Assembly (NCBI RefSeq): GCF_963676685.1
Contig: NC_092355.1
Location: 43,772,001-43,836,000, forward strand
Reading direction: 5' to 3'
DNA: 64,000 nt
Source of the DNA: Mytilus edulis
Lineage: Eukaryota
The notes under the pieces were generated by a model. That model searched no databases. It was not told the DNA's origin and worked only from the letters and a program-made list of their open reading frames with translations. This document shows, one piece after another, positions 262 to 55,822 of this stretch. Made by a program: the position numbers and the translations under genes. Within the stretch, counting starts at the first letter, position 1. The number at the start of each line of letters is the position of its first letter.

Positions 262-3200
262 CAAGCTTGTGTGTCCAGACTGAGTTTTCATTTGTTTTAT
301 AATTCCCAGTCCAGTATGTTGATCCAGAAGAACTATAAATAGAATCTCTTGATTGATTACAATTCAATCCAGCATCACGTATTTCTTCAATAGTCGCCAG
401 TCTGCCACTTTCATTTTTGTTACAAAATTTCTGTGCGTCCAACCATGTATCTTGATGACAGTAATAATGTACAGAATTAACTGAAAAACAAATAAAACAT
501 ATTAAGGAATGATTGGACAAATAAGTGGGTTTTTTTTATGTATACCATGTAATATGTATCAATATTCATTAGTATTGTTAAACATTTAGACCCACATCGG
601 TTGTCTTTTGCTAGCTGGCTCTCCTTGATTTAAATTTAGGGAGGTCTGAGTCAAAGACTTGGTACTTGATGCTTCTCGCTTTATCATATGATATTTTCTG
701 AGTAAAAATAAACACTTGTTGAAACCTATGATGACTTTCCTGGTACAACGTGACATGTCTCCCTATTAACTTATTTTTTTAGTTCACATGTCAACATTCT
801 GCTCTATTTCATAGTCTCGTTCAATGTAGGGTTCATTAAGTTGTATGTCCTGAATATTTATGAAAATCTTTGCTGATTTTAAAGTGAATACAACTTATTG
901 CAGTTGTTTATTGTTAAACTTCACTTGAATTGAGAAAAACATATGGAGAAGATTCGCGAGATATCCACACACCAAATAAAAAAGGATAACAAACGGCGGC
1001 CAAAACTGAATACTTGTTAAAGGCGTACATGCCATATACAATTAGTATCAATTCTAAACTATCGTCAAAATCGTTTGTATAATATGTCATATAACTGTGA
1101 GAAAAGAAACAATTATATCATAGAACCGTTCTACGGTAAAGCTATTAGAATCTTTTCTGTAGATTAAATCTGACAGCGTTCTTCCATAGCAAAATTGTCA
1201 GGGTCCGTTTCAAAGTGTTAGTCGAACTTTTCTGACGGAGATCTTCTAGCATAATTTAAAAGCGATAAGAAGAGATATCTACTGTTTTTTCTTTAACACA
1301 AAAACCAGCAACTGGCATAATGTAGTGGGTTCATTTAAATCTGACATCATTTTGAAAAAATGTAAACAAGGTCGATTAGAAATCTAAGATGAAGCAACAA
1401 CATTACAGGGCAAGATAGACAGCATCAACCACTGTCAATATACCAGGTTAAGTACAGGAACAAATGTATTAAATCACGTAGCTTTTGTTTAAAAAAACAG
1501 AATTGCATATGCAATTCTTAAATGTTCGGCAATTTGCAAAAAACTGCAATACAAATTAAAATAAGAATACATTCAAATGCAATTAATTGTTATGTTCAAA
1601 TTGAGAAATGTATTCTATTAATGTATATTTGTATCACTTTCATCTAGAACTACGTTTTTCTTATTTCAAATTTAATAAATCAAGTTATAATTATAGACGT
1701 CACTGTGCAATGTATTTATTAAACATTTAAAATACGCATAAAAAAACTAAAAATCTTTATAAACGAGAAAAGAAATAGTCAAGTATATTAGTAAAATCAC
1801 ACAAAAAAACTGAACTCCGATGAAAATTCAAAACGGAAAGTCCCAAATCAAATTGCAAAATCAAAGGATAGAACACATTAAACGAATGGACAACAAATGT
1901 CATATTCCTGACTTGGTACAGGCATTTTAAAATGTAGACAAAGGTGGATTGAACCTGGTTTTGTACCGCTAAACTTCTCACTTTTATGACAGTCGCATTA
2001 AATTCAGTTATTTTAAAAACGATGCTTGAACAAAACAGATATAATCGGTAAAATAGTCAAAATATGGTTACAATAGTCAAGGATTTGTAGTAAAAATACA
2101 AATCCTTGCAATAGTCAAAATATGGTTACAATAGTCATCACTGTGTTACAATCCCAAGACAAATAAACATATACAAAAAACACAAAAAGCATCTATCAAA
2201 TTAAACAACGCATTTCTTCTTTCGCGTGTGGGGCGTTAGAAAATGCAAACGTCACAAAAAAGAAATTTTGTCGTTCAATGTCTATTCAAAACAATTATAA
2301 TTTCACACGGACAATGATGGTATGCACGGTTATAAAATCAAAAGTTATGTTAGAAATAATTACAGAAACAGACAGGGATTAAAAATTATCCAGCAGTTCT
2401 TTAGAACTTTTAAGAATCCATATAAATACTACTACGCGAATAGAATAAATTTGGCGATTGTCGTTCAAAGTATTATGAAATTTATAATAGAACAATATCA
2501 TAATGACATATAATAGAACAATAACATAATGCCGGGATCTTTGAAAGTACAGAGTCACGTTATAAGAAACAATAAACCACAAAAAGTCGCATATACAAAA
2601 CACACCAGCAAAAATGAAAGATACTACATACACATTGACGGGATGTATAAGTACCGAGCCACGTCAAATGGATGTCAAACAAAACAGTTCAAACAGTAAA
2701 AGTAAAATTAATAATTGAACAAAGACAAATAAAAGAACAATATAACACGTAGATAAGATTATAAACATTATAAATGAAATATGATAAGTAGAAAGTTATC
2801 GAGAAGGAGTAAAATATACCCAGAGGTACATACATGCATGTGACATAGCATAAGAAACAATACAGATAAAAAAAAGATGAAAACATAAAGACGTATAAAA
2901 ACAGTTAAGACCAAAACAAAGTTGGGTAATACGAACTCCAATCAAAACTAGAAGTGATCCGTAGTGCTCTGAAAGGATAAGCAGATCTTATTTCGTGTCA
3001 ATCATATTCACTTGTAGTGAACCATAGTAATGATGGGCTGATTGGCATGACTGTCGACATGACCTTTCTTGACTTCCAGTGACAAATAATCCATGGGTAC
3101 TCTGGAAGAGATCATCTTAATAAATCCAAGAGGTAAGTTCTCCAAAGTGGACCAGTTGAAGGATGTGAAGGTTAGGAAACTACTGTAATAAGGCAGAACG

Positions 3201-3699
3201 TTGGATAGGAAAGCAGTTTGAGTTGCAATAGACAATATCCAGGCAAGATGTTGCAAACAGTTATTAACGTGCAGAGAGCTGGACACTTTCCCAAGACGAT
3301 GGATAGTATTTAAAATCCCCCTTCCAACCGATTTTCTTGAGTATTGTTATTAAAATATCAAGCGCTCAGTAGATCAGACGCTTCTACTCAGCATGGATTT
3401 TGTTGCCGCCGTTACCCCATTCCATCCTTTATTTCAATCTCGTTGTGTATCCATTTCTTTTAAAGAGCGTGAATACTAAACAGATATTTCATTGTAGTCA
3501 AGTATATAACAGGTCGAATTTTAACTTTTTTCATTGTATATTATTATTGTAACTTTGTCAAAACATGTGTATATGCCTTATCAATAAAGTGTATGCATGT
3601 TTGCAGTTTTATTTACTTACCGCTTATTTTCTGCTTAACAAAAAGAGAGATGAGAAACAAATTTAAAACCGAAACCAATCTCACAATGTACATCTTCAT
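262..3699 (-). CDS. 5' part of C-type-lectin-like receptor paralog 2 (exons 3699-3621 and 480-262; continues beyond window start)
   Basis: Exon 3699-3621 encodes signal-like MKMYIVRLVSVLNLFLISLFVKQKIS followed by G|gtaagt. Exon 480-262 has a tttttcag acceptor and a G|gtaaat donor (phase 1-1) and encodes TWLDAQKFC..GRLATI..YWTG, paralogous to exon 29298-29107. Confidence 0.8.
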
Positions 3700-10123: not shown

Positions 10124-10598
10124 TTATATTCTATCATACACGTCTTCATTGTTTTGTCGACTATGTATCATATCAGTTGCTGTATTATAAGTTGGGTCAG
10201 ATTCACTTCGATCAGCTAAACTGCTATCGTACAAATTATTTTCCGTGTTATCTCTTAAAAATTGTGGTGTAATATTCAACATGTCATATTCGCTATCAAT
10301 GGCTTCGTGTGAAGCTATTTCGGAATCTAGAGCTCCTTGCAATGGGGATGTCATATTGTCTGTCATAACAACTGCATACACATCATTCAGGTTTTTTCTA
10401 CCATGTGAATTTACCATTGCAGTCTCCATTATTTTCTCTGCAAAAAATCTACCTGCATGTGCCCAATCTTCTTCGTATTGTATATTGGCTGTTTTATTAT
10501 TTGATGTTTTTTGCCTCTGCGTGTCCTCATCAATTGGAGAATTTTCCTTACTCATTTCATACGGTTCCATAGTTTGCCTCTTGGTTGCAGCTTTTCCT
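10124..10598 (-). CDS. Last exon of receptor: acidic cytoplasmic tail with 7 tyrosines
   Basis: Phase-2 acceptor (AG at 10600-10599) matches the TM exon donor. Motifs YEMS, YEED, YAVV, SEYDML, YDSS, YNTA, YDRI-stop. Confidence 0.85.
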
Positions 10599-13500
10599 CT
10601 TTTAATAGATAAAATGACACTTCATATAAAAGTTTGTTTCGAAACTACCAAAGGACACGCATCAACATTAACAAAAACAAAATATTTGTCATCAACGTAC
10701 TACACAGAAACCTAAGGATAACACAAACACAACCACAAACTGAGACACATAATCTAGATGGTAAGTAGTTCACATTACACTGGTAGTAGCAGTTATTTTG
10801 TTGAACAAAACAAGGAATAAGTCATACCGACGAAGAACAAAGAACGAAATTATTTCTATCCGAGGTCATAAGAACCAGAGATCATTTATTAGTAACAATG
10901 TTGGGACTGATAGAACTTGTGAAACACTTTTCTAAAATGTCCCGTCCTAAAGCTCAAAATGCTTTGCATTGTCTTAATTTAACAATAAGGACAAAAAGTT
11001 ATAAATCATCTCAATCAATTAAAAGGCGTTGGTGATGAACGGCGGCTTAACGTCCAGTGGCAAATTGCTATTCATATTCAGGACATGAATATGTTAATGT
11101 AACATTAGTATTAACTATGCGTTATGCTAGACCGATACAGTGAACAGGGTTTTTTAACGTGCTAGTTCACAAGCTTCCAGTCCACAGAAAGACCTTACGG
11201 ACATATTATGCTGACTCCGAGTCGACAAGTTACTCCTTAAAGCCTTGTGCTTAGCAGCAAATAACAATTTTAACATCTTTATTTGTGGTTTGATCCCTCA
11301 ATCGCCCGAACTTGAGACCAACACGCTACAACGAGAACATACTCAAATGACAAACACATTCGTTTCAAAAAAGAAACCACAAAACAAAATAGATTCTAAA
11401 AAAATCAACGTCTACCATCGGAACTATCACTTTTGCCAACAACATCGAATGGTTTATTCTTAATTCGATGGTGGCATGTGTTGACAGAAATACATTTGTG
11501 ACAAGCTATTTAACTTATCCCAACAAAATGACGCTTTTTAAACTGGAGATATGTAAAGCATACGAAAAGCATTTTTGACAAAAACATCAATAAAACAAAT
11601 AAATTAAAAAATTAAATTAACATGTATTATTATATTTACTTCAAAACTAAAAAGCGAACACATACCTTAATTTTATGATTACAACTAGAACAACTACACC
11701 AATAATTGATAAGGCGCCAATCACTCCTCCGACAATTAAACCTTAAAAGAAAAAAGTACATAAGGTACATGGTCATAAAAATGGCCTGAGTAATTTTATG
11801 AATATATTTCACAATTGTACATAAAGATCCTATTTTTGTAAATATAGCTTTCTCATTAGACATGAGGTAGAGTACATGATTACGTGTAATTTATTATCAC
11901 ATGACGATTATTAACGAAAATATTGCTATAGTGTTCTGTCATCTTCCATTTTCTAAAATTGATGTTGCAAATAAAGTATAGTCAAATCCGTTGCCAGCAA
12001 CAGTGACTTTAGTGTTGGTAAGTTGTCGGTCTGTAGAACTTAGCGTGAGACAAAAATCACTAAATTTTTTTCAAAACCATATAATTAGATCATCTGTTTC
12101 TGTTCAAATTTTAAATAACGGTAAATTATTTTGGAATCTATGCGTAAGTTATGTTAAAGTATCGGAAACAAAGTTAATATAATGAAAGAATGTTGAACAT
12201 TCCTATCATAAAATAATATTGTGAATTCGAATGCAGCTAAGAATGAAACAATTCAGTGATAAAAGACAATAGTTTTATATGTACATTGCATTGCGTGTTG
12301 GGTCTATTCACAGATATCACAATAACTTCAACAGTATAACACTTTTCCATTAAAATATGTTTACTTGAAATGAATGCTCGTACATATCCAGCTACAAACA
12401 CAGTACACATTTCAGAACCATTACTTTTCAAATTGAAAGTAGTTTTTTCTTGTTCAACTATTTTTACAAAAAGAAAACGTTATATAAATAAGGCCGTTAG
12501 TTATTCTCGTTTGAATTGTTTTACATTGTCATTTCGAGGCCTTTTATAGCTGACTATGGGGTATGGGCTGTGCTCATTGTTGAAGCCCATACAGTGACCT
12601 ATAGTTGTTAATTTCTGTGTTATTTTGGTCTCTTGTGGAGAGTTGTCTCGTATGTAATTCTCCTTATAAAATGTTTGATTTGGACCTCAAAAGTTTTCTA
12701 TTCGAGTGTCAAATAAAATTCTTGTAAACGAAACACAAATTATTATTTAAAAAAAGCAGTGTTATGATTGTCAATAAGACAACTGTCATACTAATGACTG
12801 CATTTAAGCAATTTAGATTCACTGGCCCATATATATAAACATGTGAATCAATTTGAAGTAAAAACTAACCTCGTCATTTAAGAAAAAACGTTAAACAAAA
12901 AAGCTCTTTACAGAACGCATCGGCGTTAAACATGTTCGAAAGTGTTCAACCATACCATATCTCAATCTAAGAAATTAGATGTTTGCTAGTAAGACAAAGG
13001 AATCATAACCCTTTTCAACTGTGATTCAGATTTTTAATAACGGTTTACAAAATCGTTTAGTAACATGTAAACTTGAAGAACAGATGACCCCAACTTTATC
13101 ATGACAATAGTTAACAAAGACATCATGTTTATAATTTAATACGCTAGACAGCACGTTTCGTCTAAATAAGATTCATCAGTGACAAAACATTTTTCCATCT
13201 ATAATTGAAGTCACAATACTCAGAGGAGTGCCATATTTATTTCATACTTGTTATCAGCATCACTCTGAAGGTGTTTGGAATATTTCCGTCTTAATATGGC
13301 AAATAACCATCAATCAATTAGGAAAATCATGATAACATTCACAAAACTTCCTGAATACTGTGTGAAATGGGTAATCTGAATATGACTCCTTTCACATGTC
13401 TTCTCTTCAAAACGTTTTCATTTCAATGATACATTTTTGACAAACTAACACGTGTTTCGTCATTTTTTTGCGATGATATAATATACTTTCTTTCTTATGA

Positions 13501-16500
13501 AAGCAAAAAGCTGCAGAAGTAAAGATTTCGTTTCAATAAAAGCAATCAGTTTTTAAAACTCTTATATATCAAAAAGTTTTAAAACTTGAGGTATATAAAA
13601 TATTCCTACTAAGAAGTATTTTACCAATATCTGAAGTTGCAGCGTCTTCGGGAACTTCTGTGCAGTTCCTATTTTCATTCAGCTTCACAACGATACTGGT
13701 TGCAGTTTGAAACATATTGGATGATTTCATAATTCTTGTTACCGACCTTGTACCTGATAACAAGGAACGTAAGCCTTATAATTATGTTCACTCTAATTAA
13801 GGAAAGACTGTAATATTTTTCTGTATTTGAAGAAATAACATTTGGTGCACACTGAATAACTTGCGTAGCGGGTTATTTAACAGTGTGCACCACATTTTTT
13901 ATGTTTATCGAATAGACAGAAAAAATATTACAGTCATTTCTTATAATTTAATTCTAAATTCCATTTTAAACCGTAGAAAACCATAAAAAAAACGTTGACG
14001 ACGTCGCGGTCACATGACTAAATTATGTCTATGGGCTCATAACAAAACAACGTCAGCCAATCAAAAGACGCGTTACATCCAAAATTAAATTATATGAAAA
14101 TGGATTGATAGTTGATATTTGCACATATTAGCTAGTCAATAGAAGAAAGGATATAAGGTAATGTATATTTCATAATTAAAACCATTCATAGAAGCGCTTG
14201 GGATGAATGTTTTTTTGGATACATTGGACAGTCTAGACCTTGACAAAGGAACGCACTCTTGTTAATTGTTAGTGACCACATATTGCACTTTAAGTGTCTT
14301 TTGGTTTTGGAATGTTAGTGTGTTGCTCTGGTAATGTCAAATATCCTTCAATTTTAGTACTAAATCTCAAACAAACTTTAAATTAATATCGTTATCAGCA
14401 GTATTACCGTTACACAGAACAAAACATTATAATAGTTTTAGTCTGGACATAACTACCAACCTGTAACTTTAAAAGCATTCGCTGTCTTTCCAGAAGAACC
14501 ATTTGCCTTGGTTAATTTAAAATAATTAGCAGCCGTATTGAATTGTGTATAACTCCTCTCTGTCGTCTCATTGTAGGATGATGCTGCTTGAAATATTGAT
14601 ACAAAAGGCTATATTCAAAACCATATTTTTTCATATACAAACAGTTCTACTGGTGGACTATCGTTCCCCGCGGGTATCATCAGCTCAGCTTAGTTAGTAC
14701 TTCAGTACTGACATGATTAAACAAACTAAACTAAAATTGACCGTTTATAAATTTCGTATCACCAGCCCAGTAGTCAGCACTTCTGTGTTGACTGGTGTTA
14801 TCATGTATATGTTCATAATAATAAATTAGCTGTTAACATTTTTTTTAATATTTGAAATACTAAGATTTTTATTCCTCAGGGATAGATTATCTTAGATGTA
14901 TTTGGCAAAACTTTTTGGAATTTTTAGTCCTCAATGCTCTTAAACTTCGTAATTTATTTGGCCTTTTAAAAAAAAATTTAATCGAGGGTCACTGATGAGC
15001 ACTTTGTAGACGAAACGCGCGTCTGGCGTGAGTGTATTTTTTGTCCTGGTATCTATGCTGAGTGTATTTTCTACCTATGTAATCTCTGGTGATTTTCAAG
15101 CTATGGAAGCCATTTGTAAACTTGTGAAACTTTTAATGAACATTGACTTGATGGTTGATTTTCAATGTCTTCAAATTTTTGTTACTAACGTATGTGTCTG
15201 TTATAAACATCACCTCTGTAGAGGAATCGATTTTTTTGACTGATTGTTGTATCAAATATAGTTAACTTCAGATTAGGTATATGGCTTAAAAGGCTATCGA
15301 ATTATTAATGACTGAATTGAGATGAGCGAATTTGACAAAATCGCAAATTTACTAAAAAAAATAATATCACACAAAAAAATTTATTATAAACAAAAGAAGA
15401 AATGCTTACCCAATGTACAAAAGAAACCATTTGTCCTAATTCTGCATGAATTATTCATTGAAACTGCAGAGACGCCTGTTTTGTCATAACAGCGGTATGA
15501 TGCACAATGTAATACAGTGTTTTCTTTATCAAAACCATCTAAATAAGCAAAATATACAAATGTATAATTAGCCAGAATACAGTTTAAAAAATAGTTCTCG
15601 TAATATCTTGATGTGTATCAAATACATTGACAATATTTGAAGGACGTGTTTACACTTTTTTGAGTCGTTTATTTTACAAATATTTTATTCTGAATAATCA
15701 TTATGTCTATTTTTATTGAAGTTAATTTCGACTAAGAGTTTGTCGAAGAATGCTTGTTATAAATTAAAAAAACAGTTTTTATCGTCTCATCTGAACACTT
15801 TTTTCGATAAATATTATATATAAATTAATTTACTGGGATTTTATCATTGCTTGTCAAATGTTTTCTTTCAATAAATTCAGATAAAATAAGACAGCCACCA
15901 GATAACACATATAACCAGAAGATATAAAGAGGTCAACATATAGTTACTGACAATCACTCACGAAAATCAACGCTTATCCATTGTATCTATATAACCTATA
16001 AGCTTTATAACTGTTGTTTACGCCACCGACGCCGGATAGTATACATAAGTTTCGCTAACTGCAACTTTCGTCGCAGGTGAGACACAAATCTGGATATCTT
16101 GATAGGGCTAAAAACGAACATTCGAAAGCGTACAATGAATAAATAACTAAAGAATTACCATGTAATACATCAGTGCGTAAAACAACTCTGTGCATTGGTA
16201 ACCAAACACCATTTCGGTCATGTGGCATTACTTTGCAGATTTCAGACAAATTTCCTGGGATATCATATTTGCAGTGTTCTTGACTCGAAATCCAGTTCGA
16301 AGTTCTATCAATGTCTAAAGTACAATTAATTAAATCTAAATGTTTGTGACTATACATTGCTTCGAGCTAGTTGGCGTTAGTCAGGATTTTTACAGCCCAG
16401 TAAGTCAATGTTCTCGGTAAATGCATGATGTTCGATAATTTGGTTAGAAGACTTACATAATAAACACATATTCTGATAATTATGAGAACAAATAAAAACA

Positions 16501-25876: not shown

Positions 25877-25911
<35 letters not shown>

Positions 25912-33512: not shown

Positions 33513-33532
33513 TAGTTTGTTTGAATGTTGCT

Positions 33533-34173
33533 TTATTTGGGAATGTGACCAGATCTAACATATTTCATAAGTCTGACCGCTTCAACATGCATGAAATTGA
33601 AATCCTTTCTCAAAATTTCTTCATTCAATTCCTGTAGAACAGCACTGTCGACTAGTTGGTCTGCGAATTCCTTACAATATTTTGACAGGTGAAGTTTTTT
33701 AAGAATACCAAGTGTCTCCTGGACAGATTTCCCATCGACAACAGACTTGGATGATCCAGCTGACGAGCTACTTGTGGATGAGCAATAATCACTGTCAGAC
33801 GCACATGTTTCTCTGATATACATATAATTGTCAGATGATTCTAAATTCACACTTTCGTCTGCATGCATCACACGATAGTTCTGATCCTCTACAACTACAC
33901 TTAATGAATCATACGGCCGCGCTGGTAATGGGGGTCTTTTTTCTGCGGAATATATTGGAGGTCTAGATGGTAACCACTCAGGATCTGGTTCGGGTAAGAC
34001 TTCATAAATGTCGTCTTGTTCATCCCTTACACTTTTACATTTTTGTCTAGGAATTAGCTTTGGTGGTACATCATTGTAGTCATTGCCATGAATGTAATCA
34101 CTTGGAAGTAAATCTGGAGGTACAGCATTTCCTGTTCCCGTAGTTTTCGCACCTCTTTCAAATTTGGTAAGTT
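33533..34173 (-). CDS. Last exon: Pro-rich/Tyr motifs and C-terminal SAM domain
   Basis: PKLIPR, RPPLPARP, DDIYEVL, NYRVM, DNYMYI; SVQETLGILKKLHLSKYCKEFADQLVDSAVLQELNEEILRKDFNFMHVEAVRLMKY is a SAM-type pattern. Confidence 0.85.
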
Positions 34174-40100: not shown

Positions 40101-43100
40101 ACGCAACATTATGTAGCGTATGATTAATTAGAAACAATATTTACAAGCACCAAAGCACTAAAGTAAAACATCATGTATGGTTTATAAATCTTAAACAACA
40201 AGCGTAAATTTCCATTAAGTTAATAGAGATTTAAAGCTTATTAGTATGCAACTAAACCTCTTACGGGAGGAATTGTACTTGATTTTCATATGATGAAGAC
40301 ATAATCTTTCTATCAGTTGAATTGGGGTCTGGAGCTGCTAGCAGTCCTTTATTAAAGAGGGTACAGATAATAGAGGGACAGTCAAACTCATATATCGCAA
40401 ATCAACTGACGGATGTTAATGTGTGTATCATTGTCATTTTGCTTAGTTGTTTTGTTCTTTTTATGTTATCTATTCTGACATTGGACCGGATTTCTTTTCA
40501 ACAGAGTGTTACTGTGTGTATTGCTATGTTTTTCTTTATTCTATATTGGCTAGAGGTATAGGGCGTGAGTTAGATTGGACTACCTATTTCAATTTGTCTT
40601 TAAATATAGAATGAAGTTTTTACAGCCCGATAATTATATTAACTTACGGAAAACGTTCGACAATATATGAAAACTAAATAAATCAAAACAACTTTTTTGA
40701 TTATATGCGAAATACAACATTAAAATGTTTACTTACTAATACTTATGGTCAAACATTAAGATACGGTATATGCCCTTTATATAGTCTAAGTTTTACCTGA
40801 TCTTTAGCATAATCGTCATACTTTGTCTCCCCATTGAATCCCTTTGTCAAGATCACTAGAAGTGGTAGGTTGCCCTTGTACCTTCTGTGGAATTCGGGTA
40901 ATGATAATTGTTTTTCTTTAGAATACTCATACGCACAAGGCTTTGACGCAGTAGCTTAAAAAAATGAAAAATCCATATGAAGCAATCGGAAATTAAGACT
41001 GAAAAAAGATATTTGTTCTGAAATATTTTTTATCAACAGATTCTGACAAATTTCGCGCATCTATGATATTATAAGTCGAAAGTCATACAAAATCAATGCT
41101 CGAAGTTCAAAATTTGATTTAAAACATGTAAAACACAGGTTGATCTTTAACGTTAAAGATGAGTTAATAACAGACCAAATACCATTGTTGCTAATCTGAA
41201 AGCCCGTAGCATGTCCTGGCCATTCCAAATAGTTTTGGGATATTCATCATGGGAATATTTTATTACGTACGTTAACGTTGTTAATCTATTTGCAAAAAAA
41301 AAAAATTCTTCTCCCTTTATTTATCAAATAAGCAATTGGCACTTCCTTCATCTAATGTTATCATGTAAACGGTTAAATAGAAGTTAACTTGTAAACAGGC
41401 GCTTATATCCCAAACGTCCGTTCCAGTCAATACTTGGATATAATACAATAAAACAGCCTGTCCTCAAGATCTAAAAGACAGTATGACTGTTACAGCTTAT
41501 TCTCCGATTGGGACAGTCTGTCACTACTAGACAGTGCAGCCTGGTACAACTTGTCCTTCGAGTGTAACAGTCTGTTACTACCAGACATTGCGGACTGGTA
41601 CAACTTTTACTCAGAGTGGGACACCCTGTCACTGCCAGACAGTGCGGTATGGTACAGCCTGTCCTCCCAGTGGGACAGTCTGCTATGTCAATCCTGATCA
41701 ACTTGTACGTTCACTTTGTAGCCAGTACAAAGTGTCCTCTCTATATTAAAGCGCTTCTAGCACTTAATATATCCGACGTACGCTCTGTTGCTTGATGACA
41801 GCTCATCGACAGCCAACTGACAGCCTTGAATGCCGTTTTTCGTTCTCTCATATACCCGTGGTCGATTTCATTATTCCCTTGATAGGGGTTTTCTCTAAAT
41901 GTTCCCGATACCGAACACAAGAAATCCCTCTCGAAAACCCCCATACCCTTGGACTCAACCACCGCCTTTCCCGCCAAACGTCTAAATCAAATCAACGCTT
42001 CTTCCTGCGTGAATTATGTATTGCTACAACAAGATTCTTCTTGTTTGAAACCATAAAGACCAATAATCATTTCAGTAGCTAGGTCAATAAAAGAATGTGT
42101 TGTATTTTTGCAAAACTAAACAACAAATTTAATAACCCATATATTACATTCAAACACAAAAAACTAAAAGTTTTACAAAATGTTTAAAAAAATTTAAAAG
42201 TTCTGAAATAATTCTTATTAAATTAGAACTTAAATTTGAAACTGGATATTTTATATAAGAAAACAATTATTTTCATGAAGTGTGAATGAGGACGTATAAT
42301 GCTTTAACACTGACCTGGTGGATAATTTACCAGCATAATTGCAAACGATATCACAAAGAAAAGTGTGTCTTATCTATGTATAAAAAGTTTAGATTACTAA
42401 AACAAAGCTTGGTTATAAACATGGTGTCCACAAATGTGCATAATGTAATTGTATTCTGCCTACAAAGAATTATTGGAGAAAGCAATAATTTTTTTTTCTT
42501 CTGAAAGACTTATTCTTAATGGTAATCTTTGATAATGTATCAACTGTATATTGCCAAGCTTTGTATTATTAATCCAAACTTTGACGCTTAGTACAGCGTG
42601 TTAGTGAATTGCTCTTCTTAATTGTTATTCAATTATATATGACTTAAATTTCGAAATAAACACACTACCTGGACATGGCATGAACACTTGTATAAATGAA
42701 CCTTGTTTTCTGGCTAGCCGAACCTCCCGGTTATATAGCAATGTTAAAAACACATACATTGGCTTCTCGTGCGTCTTTAAAGTTTTCTTATTTTTTAATT
42801 ACATATTTGAATTTGTTTTATAAAATTAATTTATATTAACCATAGAATGTAATTCATGATGATTTCTAGAAGTTCTTATTTACAAATATAGCAATCTACG
42901 AAATTAAAACGCATATATAATATAAGATAAAAACATGATAAAACGTCGATTTATAACAGCTATGTTTTTGATATATAAATTAAAACTAAACGTACCAAGA
43001 TCAATTCCAGGTTCAACAATGGCATCTGTTTCGTGTTTTTCAGTTAAATGCTTTCCATTAACTATCGTTACAATTGTTTCAATAAATTGATTCATTCCTT

Positions 43101-46100
43101 CTTGAAAATTTTCCTCAGAGGTCATTGTTTCTTTTTTCAACCGAAAATAAACAGCCAATGCGTGGTGATCCAGGTGTTGTTCTTCTTCGCACATATCATT
43201 TTCAGAATCACTGTCTGTTGCAATGTCACATAATTCATCTGAAAACAGAGCCCGTGCTAGTATTGATTTTTGTCTCATCCTAAGTATCAATCTGCCGACA
43301 ATTTAATTTGAAAAAAAAAATCATTTGAAGATAACCATGATGACGTTGATAGTGTTAGGCTTTTCAAAAAATTTTCAAAGATTTAAATTCTCTTCATATT
43401 TGTACTTGTTTGGCTTCATAACTTTTTTGATCTGAGCGTCACTGACGAGTCTTATGAAGACGAAACGCGCGTCTGGCGTATTAAATTATAATCCTGGTAC
43501 CTTTGATAACTTATTAAATAGAGATGTTTTCAAACGTAGATACATGTACTCAAATAACAACATAATCTAATAGTGAATTGTAGTTTACTGATGTTAATAT
43601 CTCGTAAGTTGATTGGAAAGATAACAATCAGGGTAACAAAAGAAGACATAGGGGAATAAACACGTAACGTGTCAACCGGGTGCGGGAATTTCTCGCTACA
43701 TTGAAGACCTGTTGGTGACCCTCTGCTGTTGTTTTTTATTTGGTCGGGTTGTTGTCTCTTTGACACATTCCCCATTTCCATTCTCAATTTTATTGTTTCT
43801 GTTAGATAAGGATACAAAGAGACAAATGACAAGATTATTAATAGCTTATTTTATTTTTGCAACATTGATTGGTCGTAATTCTTACCATTTGGTTGTGTTA
43901 TTATAACGTGGATGCTTTCATCGGGACCAAAGTCTATAAGCTCTGCAATTCGATCCATAAACGTGCCTATCTCTATTAAAAAGGACGAATCATTTTCCAA
44001 CAATGACTTTTTGACTTCGACGTATAAAAGTAAACTTCCCTCTGTTGCTCTATCAAAAACAAATTTAAGTTGACCCTTGTTTATTTCGTCTTTGAAATCG
44101 TTCAGTAGTTTTGCTTTCTCTACAGCAACTTGATCTAGAATCTCGGGAAAGATTAAAACAAATGGACTAGTATCGCCATCATCTAGGATAACAAATATAT
44201 AAAACAACGTATTCATTAAAAATATATTTTATACTGATATATACATTCAATACAGTGTATCGATGAAAATTATAATCTTTTTCAAGGCAAAAATCATTAT
44301 CGTTAGTTAGACATACAAGTACTGCTTCTTTTTGTATGATATTGTAATTCTAACGCCTATAACATGTATGACGAAACATTTATTTAAATAAAAAAATAAC
44401 AATTTGCATTGAAAGCATATAAAACAATATAACAGTATAATTTGCAATATAAAATTGCGATATAATTTTCCCTGATGCATGGTTTTAGTTGACATTTAGA
44501 TCTTAAAGAACGACTCTTTTCCAGGGAATTATAATTTTAAACACTCAATTTAAACATACCAATATTCTCCATTTGAATGCGATAATACGAAAAAATTTCA
44601 GCTGCTAGTATTTGGCTAATAACAATCTAGACAAATATCAATAATAATTATGCAGCAAAGCTTATGGGGCTATGTAGCTATTTGTTTGTTTGATTGGCTA
44701 ATCATTTATCTACTAGTATATTATGGTATCATATGAACTTTGTATACTCACTAGTTAATGATATTTGCTGTTTTATGTATGCTGTCAGTCCCTTTTTATA
44801 ATATACTGTTACCTTTTTATCGTGCTGGTGAACTAGAAAAGTTGTACCTGGTAAAAGGATCATATTGTTACATGGTATACGTTTACTTAAGTATAATACT
44901 TTGTGCACTTCATTAATAGGGTGTGCTCCTTACACAAGTACTGCTCTTATTCAGCTAAGAGACAGCTGGAATCGAGGTTATGGGATACGTGTATGACATG
45001 AAAAACTTTCCCAGTCATAGCACCCGATCTCGTTTCTAAGAAATTCAGGCGATTACACGGTATTTCAGGTTTCTTTTCTGTCCACAATGTAAAATTGAGA
45101 ATTGAAATGGGGAATGTGTCAAAGAGACAACAACCCGACCATAGAGCAGACAACAGCATGTATCTTCTGAATGAATTTATACATCATTAAAATACTGTTA
45201 ACTCGAATCCAAATGTCTTTCGCATTGTTTTTGTTTTAATGAGTGTTCGGTTATTTTGATTTTCCCATTTGATTAGGGCCTTTCCTTTTTAAATTTTCAG
45301 CTCAGTATTTCTGTGATTTTTTGTACAGCACATGCCACTAGATTTATTGTTAAAAATTGTTTTAACCAAGTATAATAGTTAAAATCGAGAATTCACCACA
45401 TATTTTCAAAACTAAAAAAAAAAACAATCTATACGTGAACGGAATAAAACCTGTATTTCGTCTTTGATCTTAAATCCATAATTGAATGTTGATGACTTGA
45501 ACGGGAATATAATATTACTTTTATAAAATGATAAAGAGGGAAAAAAGGGGATTTCCGAAATATATTGGTCGAAACATAAAAAAACAGAAAACGCCATGGC
45601 AAATATAACTGGAATGTTCAATATGAACAGAGAAACAATTCCAACAAACACTTCGAAGAAAATAATGATTGAGTAATACAAAAAAGATTTTATTTCATCA
45701 AATATTACCTTCTTGGTTTTCTACAACCGATTTAGCCTCTAATGCTTCTCTAGTCCTGTTTTCGTCAATGGTGCAAGTTCGGAAATTCTCTATTTTCTTT
45801 TCGAATGACGATTCTAGAGTCTTATTTAAGTATTGATCAATTCGTTTTGCAACTTCAGTAAATTCTTTAAAGAAATCAGACATTATTGTTTCGGTTATAT
45901 TGATAGATAATCCATGTAAATATCTATTCCTGGCTCTACGAATTCTTTCAACATCATCACCAATCTCAACCTCTGTGGGGGTAGGGTTTGAACCCCAATT
46001 TCTTGTTGGTTTCGTAACAAATGTGTTCCTAAAATGCTTTACAATTATATATGCTAGTGAAACATCCAACACTTTGAAACCTTTGTCTGGGTCTGCTAAT

Positions 46101-46291
46101 TTGTTAACGACTTGCCATTCCTCTGGGGATAGTTTTTTATTAAAGTCCTTTGTTTGAACAATTCTGTCGTACAATGATTTGGGAGGCATCTGTGCATGTG
46201 CAATGATATCTTGAAGCATCTCTGACAGTATATCAGCCAACACTATACTTATTCGACCATGTCGTGCTTGTTCCGGTGTCGCAGTAGCCAT
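33533..46291 (-). CDS. HEPN(DZIP3-type)-2x unnamed module-CABIT-Pro/Tyr-rich-SAM protein (about 802 aa), GAREM/THEMIS-like adaptor with N-terminal HEPN
   Basis: Eight phase-compatible GT-AG coding exons: 46291-45709, 44182-43886, 43238-42996, 40954-40797, 39005-38864, 38239-38063, 35072-34905, 34173-33533 (2409 nt, 803 codons, no internal stop). A 5' UTR acceptor lies at 46342-46341. Confidence 0.72.
34905..40954 (-). CDS. CABIT-domain exons (40954-40797, 39005-38864, 38239-38063, 35072-34905)
   Basis: LSLPEFHRRYKGNLPLLVILTKGF..DQ|IIRLHR..FLSIPVDGKYKF..LMEEILAENNLPVQVRY: two LP-x-V subrepeats and SIP..YKF, as in CABIT domains. Confidence 0.75.
36250..36935 (+). mobile_element. HINE/DINE-1-like element with GTCC/GTCA microsatellite and about three 169-bp internal tandem repeats
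   Basis: 5' TATACCCCCGC..GGGGGGTATA, microsatellite 36295-36375, repeat anchor tcaggaact at 36401/36571/36739, 3' GCGGGGGTAT plus short hairpin. Confidence 0.8.
37138..37525 (+). mobile_element. 3' end of a Naiad-like PLE (RT C-terminus and 3' UTR)
   Basis: LKFYGRQHELVDRYGITVSQIISDM followed by a UTR also seen at about 16970-17205 and 32130-32225. Confidence 0.55.
41510..41683. repeat. 54-bp tandem repeat (about 3.2 units)
   Basis: Units start at 41510, 41564, 41618 and 41672 (gggacagtctgtcactaccagacagtgc..ggtacaac..agt). Confidence 0.8.
43436..43479 (+). ncRNA. Minimal type I hammerhead ribozyme (retrozyme repeat)
   Basis: gcgtca CTGACGA gtctt atg aagac GAAA cgcgcg TC tggcgt; all core bases and stems intact. 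Confidence 0.85.
45709..46291 (-). CDS. DZIP3-type HEPN domain exon
   Basis: LDVSLAYIIVKH..PTRNWGSNP..IGDDVERIRRARNRYLHG is the HEPN_DZIP3-like pattern with Rx4H (RNRYLH). Confidence 0.85.
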
Positions 46292-49200: not shown

Positions 49201-50569
49201 CAATTCGAATCAATTCGAATTAAAACGAAAGATCAGTGTGTGACCGCGATCAGCGAAATCGGTTCTCACTAGATATGAACTAAATTCGAACTAAATGTAC
49301 GTGTGAAAGAGGCAATATTTCTATTCCGTTAGGTTTGGATTTTCCCTTCTCTATTTCAATCTTTAGTAGATGTGGAACTTGATTAGTATCAAAATATAAG
49401 TCTTTGGTTAGTACTGCACGGGTATCTCTTATTTGTTATTACGGGAGGGGTTCTATAATCATACATATAAGTCTGATACTTGTATAGTACATATATGTAT
49501 CGAGGTGCTAACAGTAACTTGTGAGTACAACACGTTGTGTATAGTATAATATTTGCATTACATTATTTTGATCGAGTATACATGTAGAATAGCTAGAGAT
49601 GTGTTTGTTTAGAGATTTTTGTATTGGTTTTATTATCTTTATAAAAAAATCGCATCGTTTAGGAATTAATAATTTACTGTGTGCAAACCAAGCCTACCTT
49701 TTGACTTGACTCTTATCTAGCCATGTAGATATATTAGAAATGTTTTTACGTGGTACCCAAAACCTTGACTAATATTTATTGGGCTCGTTTGATTTTCAGG
49801 AAAAAATGACAAAATATTGACTCTGACCCTTTGACAAAAGTATAAAAATTTCAAAAATTTGAACAAACCACTTTGTCAGAAAAATTTTATTGGTTATATA
49901 GCAGTTTGACAAGCATTTATTTTGATCATTGAGAAGCTTAATATTTCCTTAGCAATACAACGTGATGAAAACGTTTATAGCAGATTTTTACAGAGTTATC
50001 TCCCTGTAATGTTAGGAACCACCTTAATTCGGACGAATTCGTGAGGGAGAATAAGAAGACTATTATTGTGTGCCCGCTAACATGTTTTACACCGCCACAT
50101 TCCTTTTATGCCAGTTCAAATAGATTTGAAGTTAGTGACCAGTTCATTTTTCGTTATGCAATAGTCCATATCCAACCGGCTGCTAACAGTTGAATCGATA
50201 TTCAATTTTTCTTAGTTGAAAATAATGAATATCTAAATATTCGATTTAAAACTTGACAGTCATAATTAAAAAGAGTAAAAAAATGAAAGGAAATCGTTTT
50301 ACGACTCATTCAAACTGTCGCAAATTATCGTTGTTTTCTGTTACCTGTCTTATCATCGGACTCGGACTTCTTCTAATCTGCTGAAACTCAACGTGCATTG
50401 CTATGTCTTTGTTTATCAACCCATCGATGGCCTTGTGCTGTTTTCTTGACTTTGGTCGTGTTTTTGTCTCTTTGACATATTTCCCTTTTCAATTCTCTAT
50501 TTCATTTATAATTAAAGCAATTCAGTTTCATGCGTATATATTTAAAGATCCACCGTCTTATATATATAT

Positions 50570-53133
50570 TTACGGCTTCTCCAACTTTTACTCTCCTTTT
50601 CTATCTATTCATATAAACAAATCAACTCTGGAATAAATGAAATGCTTTCTAAACCACCAATGTCCATTACTAACGGAGACATGGATTTAATCAAGAAAAG
50701 ATTATCCGATATTGAAAGAATAGAAAGTCAAAATTACAAAAACAAGCAACAAAAGAAATTTACCAGAGATGGTCTTAAACAGCAATTTTCAAATTTTGAT
50801 ATAAATAATATTTTAAAAGAGAGTGATTTAAAACAACCAAGAAAAAGACGTTTTAAAAAACGGACACACCCCGCGGATAATAATTTAGTTGTTAATCTGT
50901 CGTCAACAGAATTAACCAATTCAGAAGAAAAATTATTAAGTAGAGGTCTACACTTCTGTCCTATACCAGCAAACATTAACAACCTACAATTGGAGACAGA
51001 TGTGGATCAATTTGCAAGACGTCTTCGCCTAAAAGAACACTTTAATAGGCAACACAAAAAAAACTTACAAGAAGCCGGAATGAATGATTTGGAATATGAG
51101 AGTGATAAAGAGGACAAGTGCATCCAAAGATTTAAAAAGAAAAGCGAATGGAATCCACCAAGGAGTAAGAACGACAATTTAGAATCCTTTATATCATCTA
51201 TTAAAACTGAAGTAAAATCATCAGTCAGTGGCAAACGTTTACGGAATCTCTCTGAACAAGAAAGCCAAGCCATTAATAATTTAAAAAGCCGTGATGATAT
51301 TGTTATTAAACAAGCAGACAAAGGAAGTGCAGTTGTAGTGATCAACAAAACCGACTACATTGAAGAAGGGAATCGTCAGCTGGCAAATACAAAATTTTAC
51401 AAACATTTAGAAAGTGATCCTACAAAAGAAATAAGTAAACAAATTAATGAGGTCCTTTCAGATATGAACAGCAAAAAACACATAGATGACGACACGTACG
51501 ACTATCTACGTACTGATGAAACCTGCACAGCCGGTCGATTTTACTTGCTCCCAAAACTTCATAAAGAAAGGATTCCGGGAAGACCGATAGTATCTGCAAA
51601 TGGCCATCCAACCGAAAAAAATATCTGAATTCGTGGATTACCATCTTAGACCACATGTTAGAACAATGCCATCTTACATTCAAGATACAACAGATTATTT
51701 GAAGAAAATGGATTCATTAAATCCCTTACCAAACAATTTTGGTATCGATGGATGTGTCTTCTTTATACACAAATATTCCCAAAAATGAAGGAATAGTCGC
51801 TTGTGAACAAGTATGGAACAATCGTAAGGATAAACATCCCCCAACAGACTGTCTGGTTCAGTTGCTGCGACTAGTGCTGGAAAACAACAATTTTGTAATC
51901 AACGACCAGCACTACTTGCAGGTTGACAGTACCAGTATGGGAACCAAAATGGCACCTTCTTTTGCCAACTGTTTCATGGGGAGTCTCGAAGAACGCATCT
52001 TTTCGAATGTACCATACAAACCCTTGTCTTGGCTTCGTTATATTGATGACATCGACATCAAATGGAACGAAACTGCAGAACGTCTGCAAGAATTTCTCGA
52101 TTTCTGTAACAACTTTCATCAATCGATAAAGTTCACATCTGAAGTTTCAAATGAGAAAATTGCGTTTCTCGACACCACCATAACTTTAGAAAACGGAGTC
52201 ATGACAACCGACCTTCACACCAAAAAAACTGATAAACACCAATTTCTCTCTCCAAAGAGTTGCCACCCGAAACACTGCTCCCGGAGCATTCCGTACAGCC
52301 AAGCCATCAGGTTAAAACGGATTTGTTCATCGGAATCAAAATTAAACCATCGTTTGGGGCAACTCAGACAGCAACTTAAATCAAGAGGTTATAAGAACAA
52401 AAATATTTCAGAAGCTTTCGGTAAAGCAAAAGAAAAAGACCGAACAAACCTACTTGAGTACAAAGAAAAGACGGCCCAGACAAATAAAATCCCGTTTGTT
52501 GTTAGCTTTCATCCTGACCTGACAAATCTTTCATCAATTGTCCACAAACACTGGCGTCTTATTGAAAATGACCCTTCCTTAAAAGAGATTTTTCCATCAC
52601 CTCCCGTTATGGCTTACCGCAGACCCAAAAACCTCAAAGATATTCTAGTAACATCCAAAGTATCTAAACAGGAGATATCTACAATCGGAGGTTATACACC
52701 ATGCGGAAGGGGCAATTGTAAGTGCTGCAGAGTCGCCACTATCGAAACCCAATTCGTCAGCGCAGTCACAAAGAAAAAATACAACATATTCATAACATCA
52801 AATTGCAAAACGCAAAATTGCATTTATGTTCTAACGTGTGGAACTTGCAAAATACAATATGTTGGTGAAACAGAAACACCATTTAACATCCGACTAAATA
52901 ACCATCGGTCATTTTATACAAAAGAAAGGAACTGCCCAATTACAAGACACCTTTTAAGAGCAGGACATGATTTTGAAAACGTCACATTTCAAATCATTGA
53001 GAAAAATCAAAATTGGGATACACAAGGAAGACAAAAAAGAGAGAGATTTTGGATGCACCAGTTACGAACTCTTGAACCTGATGGACTCAATGAGAGAGAC
53101 GAAAAAAGATTTAAAAACAAATCAAAACCATAA
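50570..53133 (+). mobile_element. Penelope-like retroelement (Neptune-type): RT, Cys-rich linker and C-terminal GIY-YIG; frameshifted near 51620 and 51738
   Basis: KQADKGSAVVV, PGRPIVS, VSMDVSSLYTNIP, MGTKMAPSFAN, RYIDDI, SCHPKH..IPYSQAIRLKRICS, CGRGNCKCC, CIYVLTCGTCKIQYVGET, ERFW..L.TLEPDGLN; bounded by (TA)n at about 50559 and 53620-53765. Confidence 0.93.
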
Positions 53134-53358: not shown

Positions 53359-53360
53359 GA

Positions 53361-53520: not shown

Positions 53521-54978
53521 GTTGTATATACATTATGTACAAAGCCATGTATCACCATCATTGATGGCGATCCGATGGATACATCTGTTGTAGAGTTGTC
53601 ACTGACTCAGACGTACTTATATATATATATGTATACATATAAACAAGTCTAAATTGAAAACTACGTTCAAACCTATGATTGCGTTGGATAAAAACCGCAA
53701 TTTTTATACGTGTTACAAATTTCGTTGTAGAAGGGTCTAAATACATATATATATATATATATATATTTCTAAAAATCTAGAAAAGGGCTACTCCCTTGAA
53801 AAAAAATATTCAATCAAAATACAAATAAATGTTAACGGGAATGTTTTCATAGTACACGGATATCCAACTCGCTATTTCATTTCCTATTTACCGTAGACAA
53901 TGAAATTGGGGGTCAAAACTATGTTGGCATTAAGATTAGAAGGATCAACTCATAGGGAACATGTGTACTAGGTTTCAAATTAATCGGATTTCAACTTCAT
54001 CAACACTACCTTGACCAAAACCTAATAAAAAAAATAATCTGAAGCGTGACAGCCGGAAGAACGAACAGACGTCAAAAAAGATGGAAGAAAGACGGACGAA
54101 AAAATGAACGGACGGAGGAACGTATACACAGACCGAAAAACAAATATGATAAACATGAAATGTAAGCATTAATTTAAAAGTTCTTAAAAACTATGATTGG
54201 TGAGGTAGACCTCTCAAAAATAGAAGTTCCAACAATTATTACGCCTTACTTGTTTAAAATCCGAAGAAAAAAATGATCCGCTTTCAACCGCTTCAGAAAT
54301 CTTTTCGGTTTGAACATGTTGAAATTAAAGATTATTCAGTTCAAGAATTTTCATCGTTTTGAATGGCTGTAACATCAAATTCGTTGTCCAGTATCTCGAA
54401 TTGTTCTAAAATTGCATACCATGTAAAATATTACCACCAACTTTGCCACACACTATCATCTTAGAATCAGCAAAGAAAATAAACGCTTGTGGTTCTAACC
54501 AATTCATAAAATTTCAAAACTATTTTTTTTTAATCAAATACGCTGATCCTCATAACAGAGGATGTGATGTTTTCGAAAATATATGTTCTAAAACCCAATG
54601 TTTTCCTTGAGGTATTTGAATTTTATCATCGAAACACCAACAATGTTTACAGACTGTTTTTTTTATGTTTTTTGTTTTGTTTATAGCAGACCGTACTGAT
54701 ACCAGTAGTTTGAAATATTTGAAAATTGAATTAAAAAAAAAAAACTTCCTTTTAAATATGGTCCTAACTCTTGGTATACAGTATTAAATCTGACAGAATC
54801 ATTTGTGTCATTGACCCACATTTTAGTTTTTAATTCATACGTGTAGCCTTTGATTAACTTTCCGGGAAGTAATACCTAAATAAATAATAATGACAATGGT
54901 TTTGCAGGATATTGTTTGACCTTCAGTTTTTCAATATTTACAAAAAAAATATAATCATATATGATGGTGTTCAATAAC

Positions 54979-55822
54979 ATGAAAACCTTCTGCGTGTTGT
55001 TTTACCTTATATTTCAGGGTAAGTTTTTTGTAATTGTTCTAAACAAAAATTGTAACATAATATCAAAGGAGGGCGACTTGAAATCTTAAATCAGCTTTAA
55101 ATTGCCTTTTCCGTTATCAAATAATTAAGTTGTTCGGAAAAAATGAAATGAATGTTGCTTGGTGTTGTCAATGTTGACTTATGATTTTTGACATCTTCAT
55201 TTAGTATTTTTTGCCTCTTCTAGTGCCTCCACTGTTTTCGACGAGGACAATACTTGTTTCCCTTGACCATTCGTTCGTCTTTTCGTCCATAGTTTCGTCC
55301 GTCCTAGTTTCGTTTCCGCACTCCAACTTCAGTTTGCCTTATACAATTATGAGTATTTGTGTCCTTAGACACATTTTCCTTTTATTTAAAGGTAGTGACT
55401 GTAATTTAAAAAAACATCATACATAAAAGAGCATAACTGTTTTTATTTAATCTGTTGTTTTACAGTCATTATTCAAGCAGTCCAAGTTAGTCTAAAAGGA
55501 CCACAGTATGCGAGAAGGAATGCTGCTTTTAAAGTAATTTGTTCTTCAGACAAAATACCGATTGGCTTAACTGCTGATTTTCTCATAAATGAAAAAACAC
55601 ACACAAATTTACGAAGAGGTGATGATGGGTGTTACTCCGCACTATTAAAAACAAGATGTCCGTCGGATTCTTCAGTATGTTCCTGCAGTAAAAATGGAAC
55701 TGTATATGGATTAGTCATACAAGCATCGGAACCAACAAATACTATGACTATAATGTGTTCAATGAAATTTAAAAATGGAAGAGAGTTTTCTAAAAATGAC
55801 ATCTTGATCGTTAAGGTTCATG
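54979..55822 (+). CDS. Secreted or surface protein: signal peptide exon (54979-55018) and Cys-rich Ig-like exon (55466-55822); further exons not found
   Basis: MKTFCVLFYLIFQ G|gtaagt; ttttacag acceptor, 357-nt open phase 1-1 exon VSLKGPQYA..FKVICSS..CSCS..TIMCSMKF..LIVKVH G|gtgagt. Absent from the ORF track. Confidence 0.75.

What the first reader, a model, noticed from the sequence alone, without database searches (positions are those of the whole stretch)
262..55822. Candidate receptor-adaptor-effector immune cluster
Seen: the HEPN-CABIT-SAM gene ends about 3.5 kb upstream of, and on the same strand as, at least two tandem lectin-like genes, one with a complete TM and Tyr-rich tail. An Ig-like surface or secreted gene lies head-to-head on the other side. 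Inference: the lectin-like sensors (pTyr tails) and the CABIT adaptor could form one co-inherited pathway via Grb2/SHP-type bridges. Adjacency alone is weak evidence in eukaryotes.
Basis: inference. Interest (0 to 1): 0.7.

Follow-up and report, generated by a model that had tools for sequence, protein, structure and literature searches.

The report
Mussel RNase-adaptor fusion gene beside receptors
This mussel gene is a spliced, intact fusion of a predicted RNA-cutting module, likely taken from an NLR-like immune gene, with an inverted copy of a nearby signalling-adaptor gene; the receptor genes beside it are real, but they are probably neighbours by accident of where the copy landed and not a shared pathway.

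Summary
The genes are real; the "cluster" is probably incidental. The window is Mytilus DNA.

Gene A (9 exons, 834 aa, intact) is HEPN, two linker domains, CABIT, a proline-rich region and SAM. An RNA contig spans its HEPN-to-CABIT junction. Receptor genes B and C (signal peptide, C-type-lectin-like ectodomain, TM, Tyr tail) lie 3.5 kb downstream. An Ig receptor gene, F, lies 8.7 kb upstream, head-to-head.

A is a chimera. Its CABIT-SAM half is an inverted ~10 kb duplicate of gene D, 215 kb away (89% identical). It is spliced through D's old first-exon acceptor and has lost the ATG. A STAND relic in intron 4 matches an M. coruscus HEPN-STAND-ankyrin protein with a 91% identical HEPN.

The duplicate ends 1.2 kb from B, which explains the adjacency. 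M. coruscus keeps the linkage, but 0 of 6 other CABIT-SAM loci have such a receptor beside them, 0 of 3 other receptor loci have CABIT-SAM, and the B and C tails lack YxN.

HEPN+CABIT was in 0 of 150 top representatives and 0 papers. The likely function is a clustering-activated RNase on a GAREM-like scaffold (untested).

The parts
45709..46291 (-). Gene A exon 1: DZIP3-type HEPN domain with an intact R-N-x3-H motif
   Evidence: Pfam 27.1 bits; motif also in P0001 and P0003; RNA contigs in X1 and X2
44752..44847 (-). Gene A exon 2 (32 codons, phase 1-1)
   Evidence: Splice model; shared with P0002 and P0003
43886..44182 (-). Gene A exon 3: linker domain 1, TRADD-N-like by recalled pattern, unconfirmed
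   Evidence: TRADD-like_N in only 1 of 15 relatives at E 0.06
42996..43238 (-). Gene A exon 4: linker domain 2, last exon of the HEPN module
   Evidence: spliced to exon 5 in an X1 contig
42284..42373 (-). Relic of a STAND-ankyrin coding exon inside intron 4 (30 codons, 73% to P0003 residues 695-724)
   Evidence: 47.4 bits against a maximum of 24.3 in 100 shuffles; aligns with the same region of two other STAND-ankyrin proteins
31268..41196 (-). Inverted duplicate of the CABIT-SAM gene D region (G000:C12 about 43.574-43.593 Mb)
   Evidence: Collinear inverted DNA matches, introns and flanks 64-81%, last exon about 90%
40797..40954 (-). Gene A exon 5: fusion exon, D's first coding exon entered through its 5' leader acceptor, start ATG lost
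   Evidence: D: acceptor, 5-nt leader, ATG ATG; RNA contig with 0 mismatches here
38864..39005 (-). Gene A exon 6 (CABIT)
38063..38239 (-). Gene A exon 7 (CABIT)
34905..35072 (-). Gene A exon 8 (CABIT end)
33533..34173 (-). Gene A exon 9: proline/tyrosine-rich linker with a PxxPxR SH3 ligand, then a GAREM-type SAM and stop
30001..30064 (-). Gene B exon 1: predicted signal peptide
   Evidence: hydrophobic core, canonical donor; start not confirmed by RNA
10124..30064 (-). Gene B: 11 exons, 559 aa; lectin-like and WSC-like Cys-rich ectodomain, Ser/Thr stalk, TM (exon 11741-11666), 157-aa tail with 7 Tyr (exon 10598-10124)
   Evidence: 73% to M. galloprovincialis P0005; spliced contigs
3621..3693 (-). 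Gene C exon 1: predicted signal peptide
   Evidence: 58% to the P0158 N-terminus
262..480 (-). Gene C exon 2: N-terminal half of a lectin-like domain; five more exons lie left of the window
50546..53130 (+). Penelope-type retroelement (RT plus GIY-YIG, frame interrupted near 51625-51721) between A and F
54961..55018 (+). Gene F exon 1: predicted signal peptide
55466..55822 (+). Gene F exon 2: Cys-rich first domain of a dispersed family (26 matches in G000); Ig, TM and tail exons follow beyond the window

Best explanation
Gene A is an intact, spliced chimera that joins a HEPN module, likely from a HEPN-STAND-ankyrin (NLR-like) gene, to an inverted copy of the nearby GAREM-like CABIT-SAM gene D; it likely works as an RNase switched on by clustering on signalling complexes, and the flanking receptor genes are probably incidental neighbours. 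Origin (sequence shown, order of events inferred): a ~10 kb copy of D landed, inverted, inside the STAND exon of a HEPN-STAND-ankyrin gene next to receptor B. D's first coding exon has a 5-nt leader after its acceptor, so a phase-1 intron from exon 4 joins it in frame. The old ATG was then lost in this genome, so the CABIT-SAM half can no longer start at its original codon. Function (inferred): the PxxPxR ligand and CABIT would bind an SH3 adaptor of the Grb2 type, SAM would self-associate, and this would bring two HEPN domains together in place of STAND oligomerisation (HEPN RNases act as dimers: recalled). The result would be RNA cleavage as an immune or death output. Any tyrosine-kinase-coupled receptor could be upstream; nothing singles out B, C or F.
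For: Intact 834-aa frame. An X1 contig of 772 nt covers exons 3-4-5-6 at the predicted boundaries with 2 mismatches. Duplicate collinear with D from 41196 to 31268; A versus D 89% protein identity, dN/dS 0.27 over 427 codons. Leader and ATG comparison. STAND relic. The same module is 91% (HEPN) and 83% (linkers) identical to STAND-ankyrin P0003, and a more distant copy heads a sacsin-domain protein (P0032). The chimera also exists in M. coruscus (P0001, 82%). Of 150 top representatives, 77 carry HEPN, 68 CABIT, 0 both. PxxPxR in 44 of 55 family linkers against 4.0 in shuffles, maximum 9. Best PDB sequence match of the family SAM is 2dkz, LOC64762 (E 8e-13; recalled as GAREM1). No receptor at 6 other CABIT-SAM loci, no CABIT-SAM at 3 other receptor loci. 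A copy landing within 250 kb of D would fall within 5 kb of B/C about 11% of the time.
Against: No RNase activity or binding was tested. The dN/dS pools both lineages and the tree puts most amino-acid change on A (branch 0.092 versus 0.0045 for D, fork unresolved), so constraint on A is weaker than 0.27 suggests. A has lost the THEMIS-type PxRPxK motif that D and P0001 keep, though only 2 of 55 family members have it. RNA for exons 7-9 in X2 comes from D (21 of 23 listed differences equal D's base), so A's own 3' half is not shown transcribed. No close HEPN-STAND-ankyrin donor was seen in G000 (next HEPN 46-48%). Without assuming local duplication, the chance of such adjacency on this chromosome is only about 1.7%. 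M. coruscus P0002 shows a second partial copy beside a third receptor paralog.
Confidence: 0.6

Rival explanations
1. One reading: A, B/C and F form a co-inherited receptor-adaptor-effector unit; phosphorylated receptor tails recruit A through SH2/SH3 bridges.
For: Linkage kept in M. coruscus. A second M. coruscus model (P0002) joins a partial A to another receptor paralog. A and B were both present in X1 and X2 and near-absent in X21 and X24. B has an ITIM-like SxYxxL and conserved NxxY/DPxY tyrosines. About 1.7% by chromosome-wide random placement.
Against: The pairing is not repeated: 0 of 6 and 0 of 3 loci. No YxN in B, C, P0005, P0006 or P0002 tails. The duplication breakpoint accounts for the spacing. 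P0002's HEPN is 99.5% identical to P0001's and may be the allelic haplotype. The four RNA runs were chosen for A and differ in organism label.
Confidence: 0.15
2. A is a guard or decoy: it sits in tyrosine-phosphorylation complexes like its parent D and fires the RNase when a pathogen tampers with them (integrated-decoy logic, recalled from plant NLRs).
For: The CABIT-SAM part replaces the STAND-ankyrin sensor of an NLR-like gene. It evolves faster than D. D is still expressed.
Against: No pathogen data. Faster change fits relaxed constraint equally well. The STAND switch itself is gone.
Confidence: 0.12
3. A is a by-product of module shuffling, transcribed weakly and slowly decaying, or acting only as a redundant adaptor with a passive HEPN.
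For: Low contig depth (about 3-10). Near-zero reads in two raw RNA runs. P0002 looks degenerate. Such shuffling is common in bivalves (PMC8195603, passages).
Against: Frame, eight splice junctions and the catalytic motif are intact in two species whose copies differ at 18% of residues, while the duplicated introns have drifted to 64-81%. dN/dS 0.27.
Confidence: 0.13

Closest known systems
Bivalve DZIP3/hRUL138-like HEPN proteins and HEPN-NACHT/STAND NLR-like genes (PMC9646362, passages seen; PMC8195603, passages seen)
   Same: N-terminal DZIP3-type HEPN with Rx4H, here R-N-x3-H; a mobile module on varied bodies (STAND-ankyrin, AIG1, sacsin); a large family (127 HEPN matches in G000).
   Different: No NTPase and no repeat sensor; the body is CABIT-proline-rich-SAM, a partner not named in the passages read and absent from 150 top representatives.
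GAREM1/2 (single CABIT, Grb2-associated; PMC13381594 and bioRxiv 2024.10.01.616165, passages seen; the proline-rich plus SAM layout is recalled)
   Same: Single CABIT, proline-rich SH3 ligand, C-terminal SAM whose best PDB sequence match is 2dkz.
   Different: A carries a 406-aa HEPN module in front and belongs to a mollusc expansion (61 CABIT+SAM among 150 representatives); orthology to GAREM was not tested.
THEMIS (tandem CABIT plus PxRPxK binding Grb2 C-SH3; PMC13381594, passages seen)
   Same: CABIT fold (Atlas TM 0.64); PxRPxK present in D and P0001.
   Different: One CABIT only, a SAM present, and PxRPxK lost in A.
Type I C-type-lectin-like receptors with Tyr-motif tails (for B and C)
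   Same: Signal peptide, Cys-rich lectin-like ectodomain, stalk, TM, Tyr tail; UniRef names P0005 'C-type lectin domain-containing'.
   Different: No Pfam lectin hit, no EPN/QPD/WND; a WSC-like segment appears to interrupt the first lectin-like domain in B (inferred from Cys spacing); ligand unknown.

Membership tests
DZIP3-like HEPN RNase domain | PF18738 match at the curated cut-off | tested here: met
   27.1 bits against 27; 13 of 15 module relatives match
DZIP3-like HEPN RNase domain | Rx4-6H catalytic motif | tested here: met
   RNRYLH in A, P0001, P0003; R121, N122, H126 at least 90% conserved in 33 sequences
DZIP3-like HEPN RNase domain | RNase activity as a dimer | not testable with these tools
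   Needs an assay
HEPN-STAND/NACHT NLR-like receptor | P-loop STAND NTPase and repeat sensor in the protein | tested here: not met
   Only a 30-codon intronic relic; no NTPase or ankyrin hit in P0001
CABIT family | PF12736 match or CABIT fold | tested here: met
   Pfam misses P0001, but Atlas features 0.90 and TM 0.64 to THEMIS and relatives pass the cut-off; PDB fold searches listed only SAM matches for a paralog model
GAREM-like adaptor | Single CABIT, SH3-ligand region, C-terminal SAM | tested here: met
GAREM-like adaptor | Binds Grb2 and SHP phosphatases | not testable with these tools
   Motif only
THEMIS | Tandem CABIT domains and PxRPxK | tested here: not met
   One CABIT; PxRPxK absent in A
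TRADD-N domain (exons 3-4) | PF20694 or fold match | tested here: inconclusive
   1 of 15 at E 0.06; none for the exons or in PDB
C-type lectin receptor (B, C) | CTLD profile or fold | tested here: inconclusive
   No Pfam hit; Atlas neighbours 0.88-0.77; model failed
C-type lectin receptor (B, C) | Ca2+/sugar motifs EPN or QPD plus WND | tested here: not met
Ig-superfamily surface receptor (F) | Signal peptide, Ig domains, TM | tested here: met
   exons joined by inference, no RNA laid
Functional gene cluster (co-inherited pathway) | Linkage kept across species | tested here: met
   M. coruscus only; nothing outside Mytilus examined
Functional gene cluster (co-inherited pathway) | Pairing recurs at independent loci | tested here: not met
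   0 of 6 and 0 of 3 loci in G000; P0002 ambiguous
Functional gene cluster (co-inherited pathway) | Co-expression and joint presence/absence | tested here: inconclusive
   Four runs only, chosen for A; presence/absence not tested

The most novel reading that the evidence does not exclude
Mussels have built a phosphotyrosine-signalling-gated RNase: an NLR effector module grafted onto a GAREM-like scaffold, activated by SAM clustering on the tails of the neighbouring lectin-like receptors and kept linked to them as one immune haplotype. It would be a surface-receptor-to-RNase pathway born by a single local duplication.
Probability: 0.12. Interest if true: 0.8.

Novelty: new variant of a known kind. 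Interest (0 to 1): 0.45.

Why it matters
It is an unusually legible case of how bivalve immune proteins gain new architectures: the parent gene, the breakpoints, the relic of the displaced STAND exon and the co-opted splice acceptor are all still visible, and the junction is transcribed. It links a predicted anti-invader RNase to a CABIT scaffold, a domain studied mainly in T-cell signalling, and gives a simple test of whether DZIP3-type HEPN domains are switched on by clustering. The cluster idea itself adds little unless binding or co-inheritance is shown.

Tried and rejected
Pfam for lectin domains in B, C and relatives: none. AlphaFold2 of P0005 on 3 sequences: pLDDT 30, not searched further. 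PDB profile search for B: only weak intimin (E 0.014) and TM matches. Foldseek and VIA searches of the paralog E model (pLDDT 82) listed SAM domains and no THEMIS chain, which is inconclusive for CABIT. HEPN homodimer prediction: score 0.01, no answer, not used either way. Trees of the HEPN module (9 rows) and CABIT-SAM (8 rows) left the key forks open, so they do not date the fusion. A P0002-type receptor was not seen in G000, but only 48 of 383 candidates were scored. Whether G000 holds a close STAND-ankyrin donor body was left open beyond and the fetched stretches. Not examined: the 8 Pfam CABIT matches on C1 and a weak receptor hit on C14. Read-through from A into B, as in the P0002 model, is rejected as the normal product: A has a stop, B has its own signal exon, and no A-to-B joint was among those listed (15 shown, 62 more not shown). 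Literature searches; 'HEPN' with 'CABIT' gave 0 papers. Subscription papers and supplements (for example the architecture tables of PMC8195603 and PMC9646362) were not read and could list this architecture. Earlier-findings look-ups by place, sequence and HEPN+CABIT words returned nothing.
Full report
SETTING. The window is G000:C12:43,772,001-43,836,000, AT-rich animal DNA. Its closest proteins are from Mytilus. I call the genes A (HEPN-CABIT-SAM), B and C (lectin-like receptors), D and E (nearby CABIT-SAM paralogs) and F (Ig receptor).

GENE A IS REAL. Nine exons from 46291 to 33533 give one 834-aa frame with GT-AG introns, 82% identical to M. coruscus P0001. Exon 1 is a DZIP3-type HEPN domain (27.1 bits, cut-off 27) with RNRYLH. 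Exons 3-4 are two unnamed linker domains; a TRADD-N likeness is recalled and unconfirmed. Pfam does not detect CABIT in P0001, but the Atlas does, by features and by predicted structure, and relatives pass the Pfam cut-off. The family SAM best matches PDB 2dkz, LOC64762, which I recall as GAREM1. PxxPxR occurs in 44 of 55 family linkers against 4.0 in 500 shuffles, and A keeps it.

RNA. In run X1 a 772-nt contig covers exons 3, 4, 5 and 6 at the predicted boundaries with 2 mismatches, so the fusion junction is spliced; exon 1 is covered in X1 and X2. The contig over exons 7-9 in X2 is D's (21 of 23 listed differences). Two raw RNA runs of another organism label (6% and 18% of reads read) showed almost no exon coverage.

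THE NEIGHBOURS ARE REAL. B has 11 exons, 559 aa, with a signal peptide, a Cys-rich ectodomain, a stalk, a TM and a 157-aa tail with 7 tyrosines. It starts 3,469 bp after A's stop and is spliced in X1 and X2. C (389 aa in the model built) lacks B's four middle exons and ends outside the window; its expression was not tested. 'Lectin-like' is a resemblance only. F starts 8,670 bp from A's ATG on the other strand, behind a Penelope-type element, and continues beyond the window with Ig, TM and probable Tyr-tail exons. Its first domain has 26 matches over many chromosomes.

A IS A CHIMERA. Gene D lies about 215 kb away on the opposite strand, is intact (427 aa), has no HEPN, and is 89% identical to A's second half. 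DNA matches to D's region run collinearly and inverted from window 41196 to 31268, with introns and flanks at 64-81%. D's first coding exon is acceptor, 5-nt leader, ATG ATG. A uses the same acceptor after a phase-1 intron and has lost the ATG; P0001 keeps one Met there. About 1.1 kb beyond the duplicate's edge, in intron 4, a 30-codon stretch is 73% identical to the STAND region of P0003 (47.4 bits, maximum 24.3 in 100 shuffles) and aligns with that region in two other STAND-ankyrin proteins. P0003 is HEPN-linkers-nSTAND3-ankyrin with the module 91% and 83% identical to A's. The simplest history, which is inferred, is insertion of a copy of D into a HEPN-STAND-ankyrin gene beside B, before the split from M. 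coruscus; the trees do not resolve the order. No close second HEPN copy was found in G000 (next 46-48%; 150 of 246 candidates scored). A versus D gives dS 0.22, dN 0.059; most amino-acid change appears to lie on A.

IS THE ARCHITECTURE NEW? Among the 150 best of 646 representatives, 77 have HEPN, 68 CABIT and none both; 32 of the HEPN hits are under 260 aa, probably single exons that cannot show fusions. The search for longer homologs found it only in M. coruscus. No paper in the library holds both words. HEPN modules on varied bodies in bivalves are known (PMC8195603 and PMC9646362, passages), so this is a new variant of a known kind. Earlier AI notes on HEPN-STAND-ankyrin genes in this genome and on CABIT-SAM genes elsewhere agree but are not evidence.

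IS IT A CLUSTER? For: P0001 (CAC5385892) and the C-like tail P0006 (CAC5385890) share a contig length and are two accessions apart. M. galloprovincialis P0007 runs from B into the next receptor, so the tandem is kept there. P0002 joins a partial A to a third receptor paralog, 29% identical to B. Random placement of 7 CABIT-SAM loci on C12 gives 1.7% for such closeness. A and B were present or near-absent together in 4 of 4 runs.

Against: the duplicate ends 1.2 kb from B's ATG, and a copy landing within 250 kb of D would be that close 11% of the time (rough and after the fact). Profile searches found no receptor of this family, no F-type exon and no HEPN module in five other CABIT-SAM neighbourhoods (60-90 kb each), and the nearest receptor to D/E is 159 kb away; three other receptor loci (50-100 kb each) held no CABIT-SAM. 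P0002 may be an allele of P0001 (HEPN 99.5%). B and C tails have no YxN; B has one SxYxxL, and both keep NxxY and DPxY tyrosines. THEMIS binds Grb2 through PxRPxK and both CABITs (PMC13381594, passages); A has one CABIT and lacks that motif. An isolated CABIT2 does not bind SHP1 (bioRxiv 2024.10.01.616165, passages). Presence/absence variation is widespread in mussels and enriched in young immune families (PMC10514466, passages) but was not tested here.

MECHANISM. Shown: the gene structures, the duplication, the relic, the spliced junction and the motifs. Inferred: recruitment through an SH3 adaptor, SAM-driven clustering, HEPN dimerisation, RNA cleavage and an immune role. I put the chimeric origin at about 0.85, an incidental neighbourhood at about 0.75 and the clustering-activated RNase at about 0.45.

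VERDICT. Observation confirmed; pathway reading only partly supported; the finding of value is the chimera. Interest 0.45; new variant of a known kind.

Noticed in passing
window 50546-53130 (+): Penelope-type retroelement with RT and GIY-YIG domains, frame interrupted near 51625-51721.
   Followed up: partly
window 21341-22593 (-): Decayed retroelement-like coding pieces inside an intron of gene B; no clear Pfam hit; family recalled from the sequence.
   Followed up: no
window 262-3693 and G000:C12:43764892-43772000: Gene C lacks the four middle exons of B, which would leave one lectin-like domain made of the two outer halves; M. galloprovincialis P0159, with a C-like signal peptide, has all of them. 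One stalk exon has a damaged acceptor, with an in-frame alternative acceptor.
   Followed up: partly
G000:C4:13.96-14.03 Mb (L109, L110): Closest in-genome relatives of the HEPN module (46-48%); the 14.02 Mb copy matches P0032, where the linkers head a sacsin domain, a third partner for the module.
   Followed up: partly
G000:C12, 9.6-77.3 Mb: All matches to this CABIT-SAM subfamily fell on C12, in seven loci, several as tandem arrays; a separate set of 8 Pfam CABIT matches lies on C1.
   Followed up: partly
window 10124-10598; L052, L065: The receptor family shares a tail block NxY(D/N)xS...DPTYNT and most members end in YDx(V/I/L); it is repeated twice in the C12:48.19 Mb member. Possible PTB or Nck-type sites (recalled).
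   Followed up: partly
window 36377-36855 and 41485-41682: Tandem repeats of 170 bp (2.8 copies) and 54 bp (3.7 copies) in introns of A; the first belongs to a highly transcribed repeat.
   Followed up: no
G000:C12:43525045-43546482 (-): Exons that look like replication factor C subunit 1 (recalled from the sequence), a housekeeping landmark about 30 kb from gene D, useful for synteny.
   Followed up: no
G000:C12:43947425-43947829 (L050): A second member of the gene F first-domain family about 120 kb from F, on the opposite strand.
   Followed up: no
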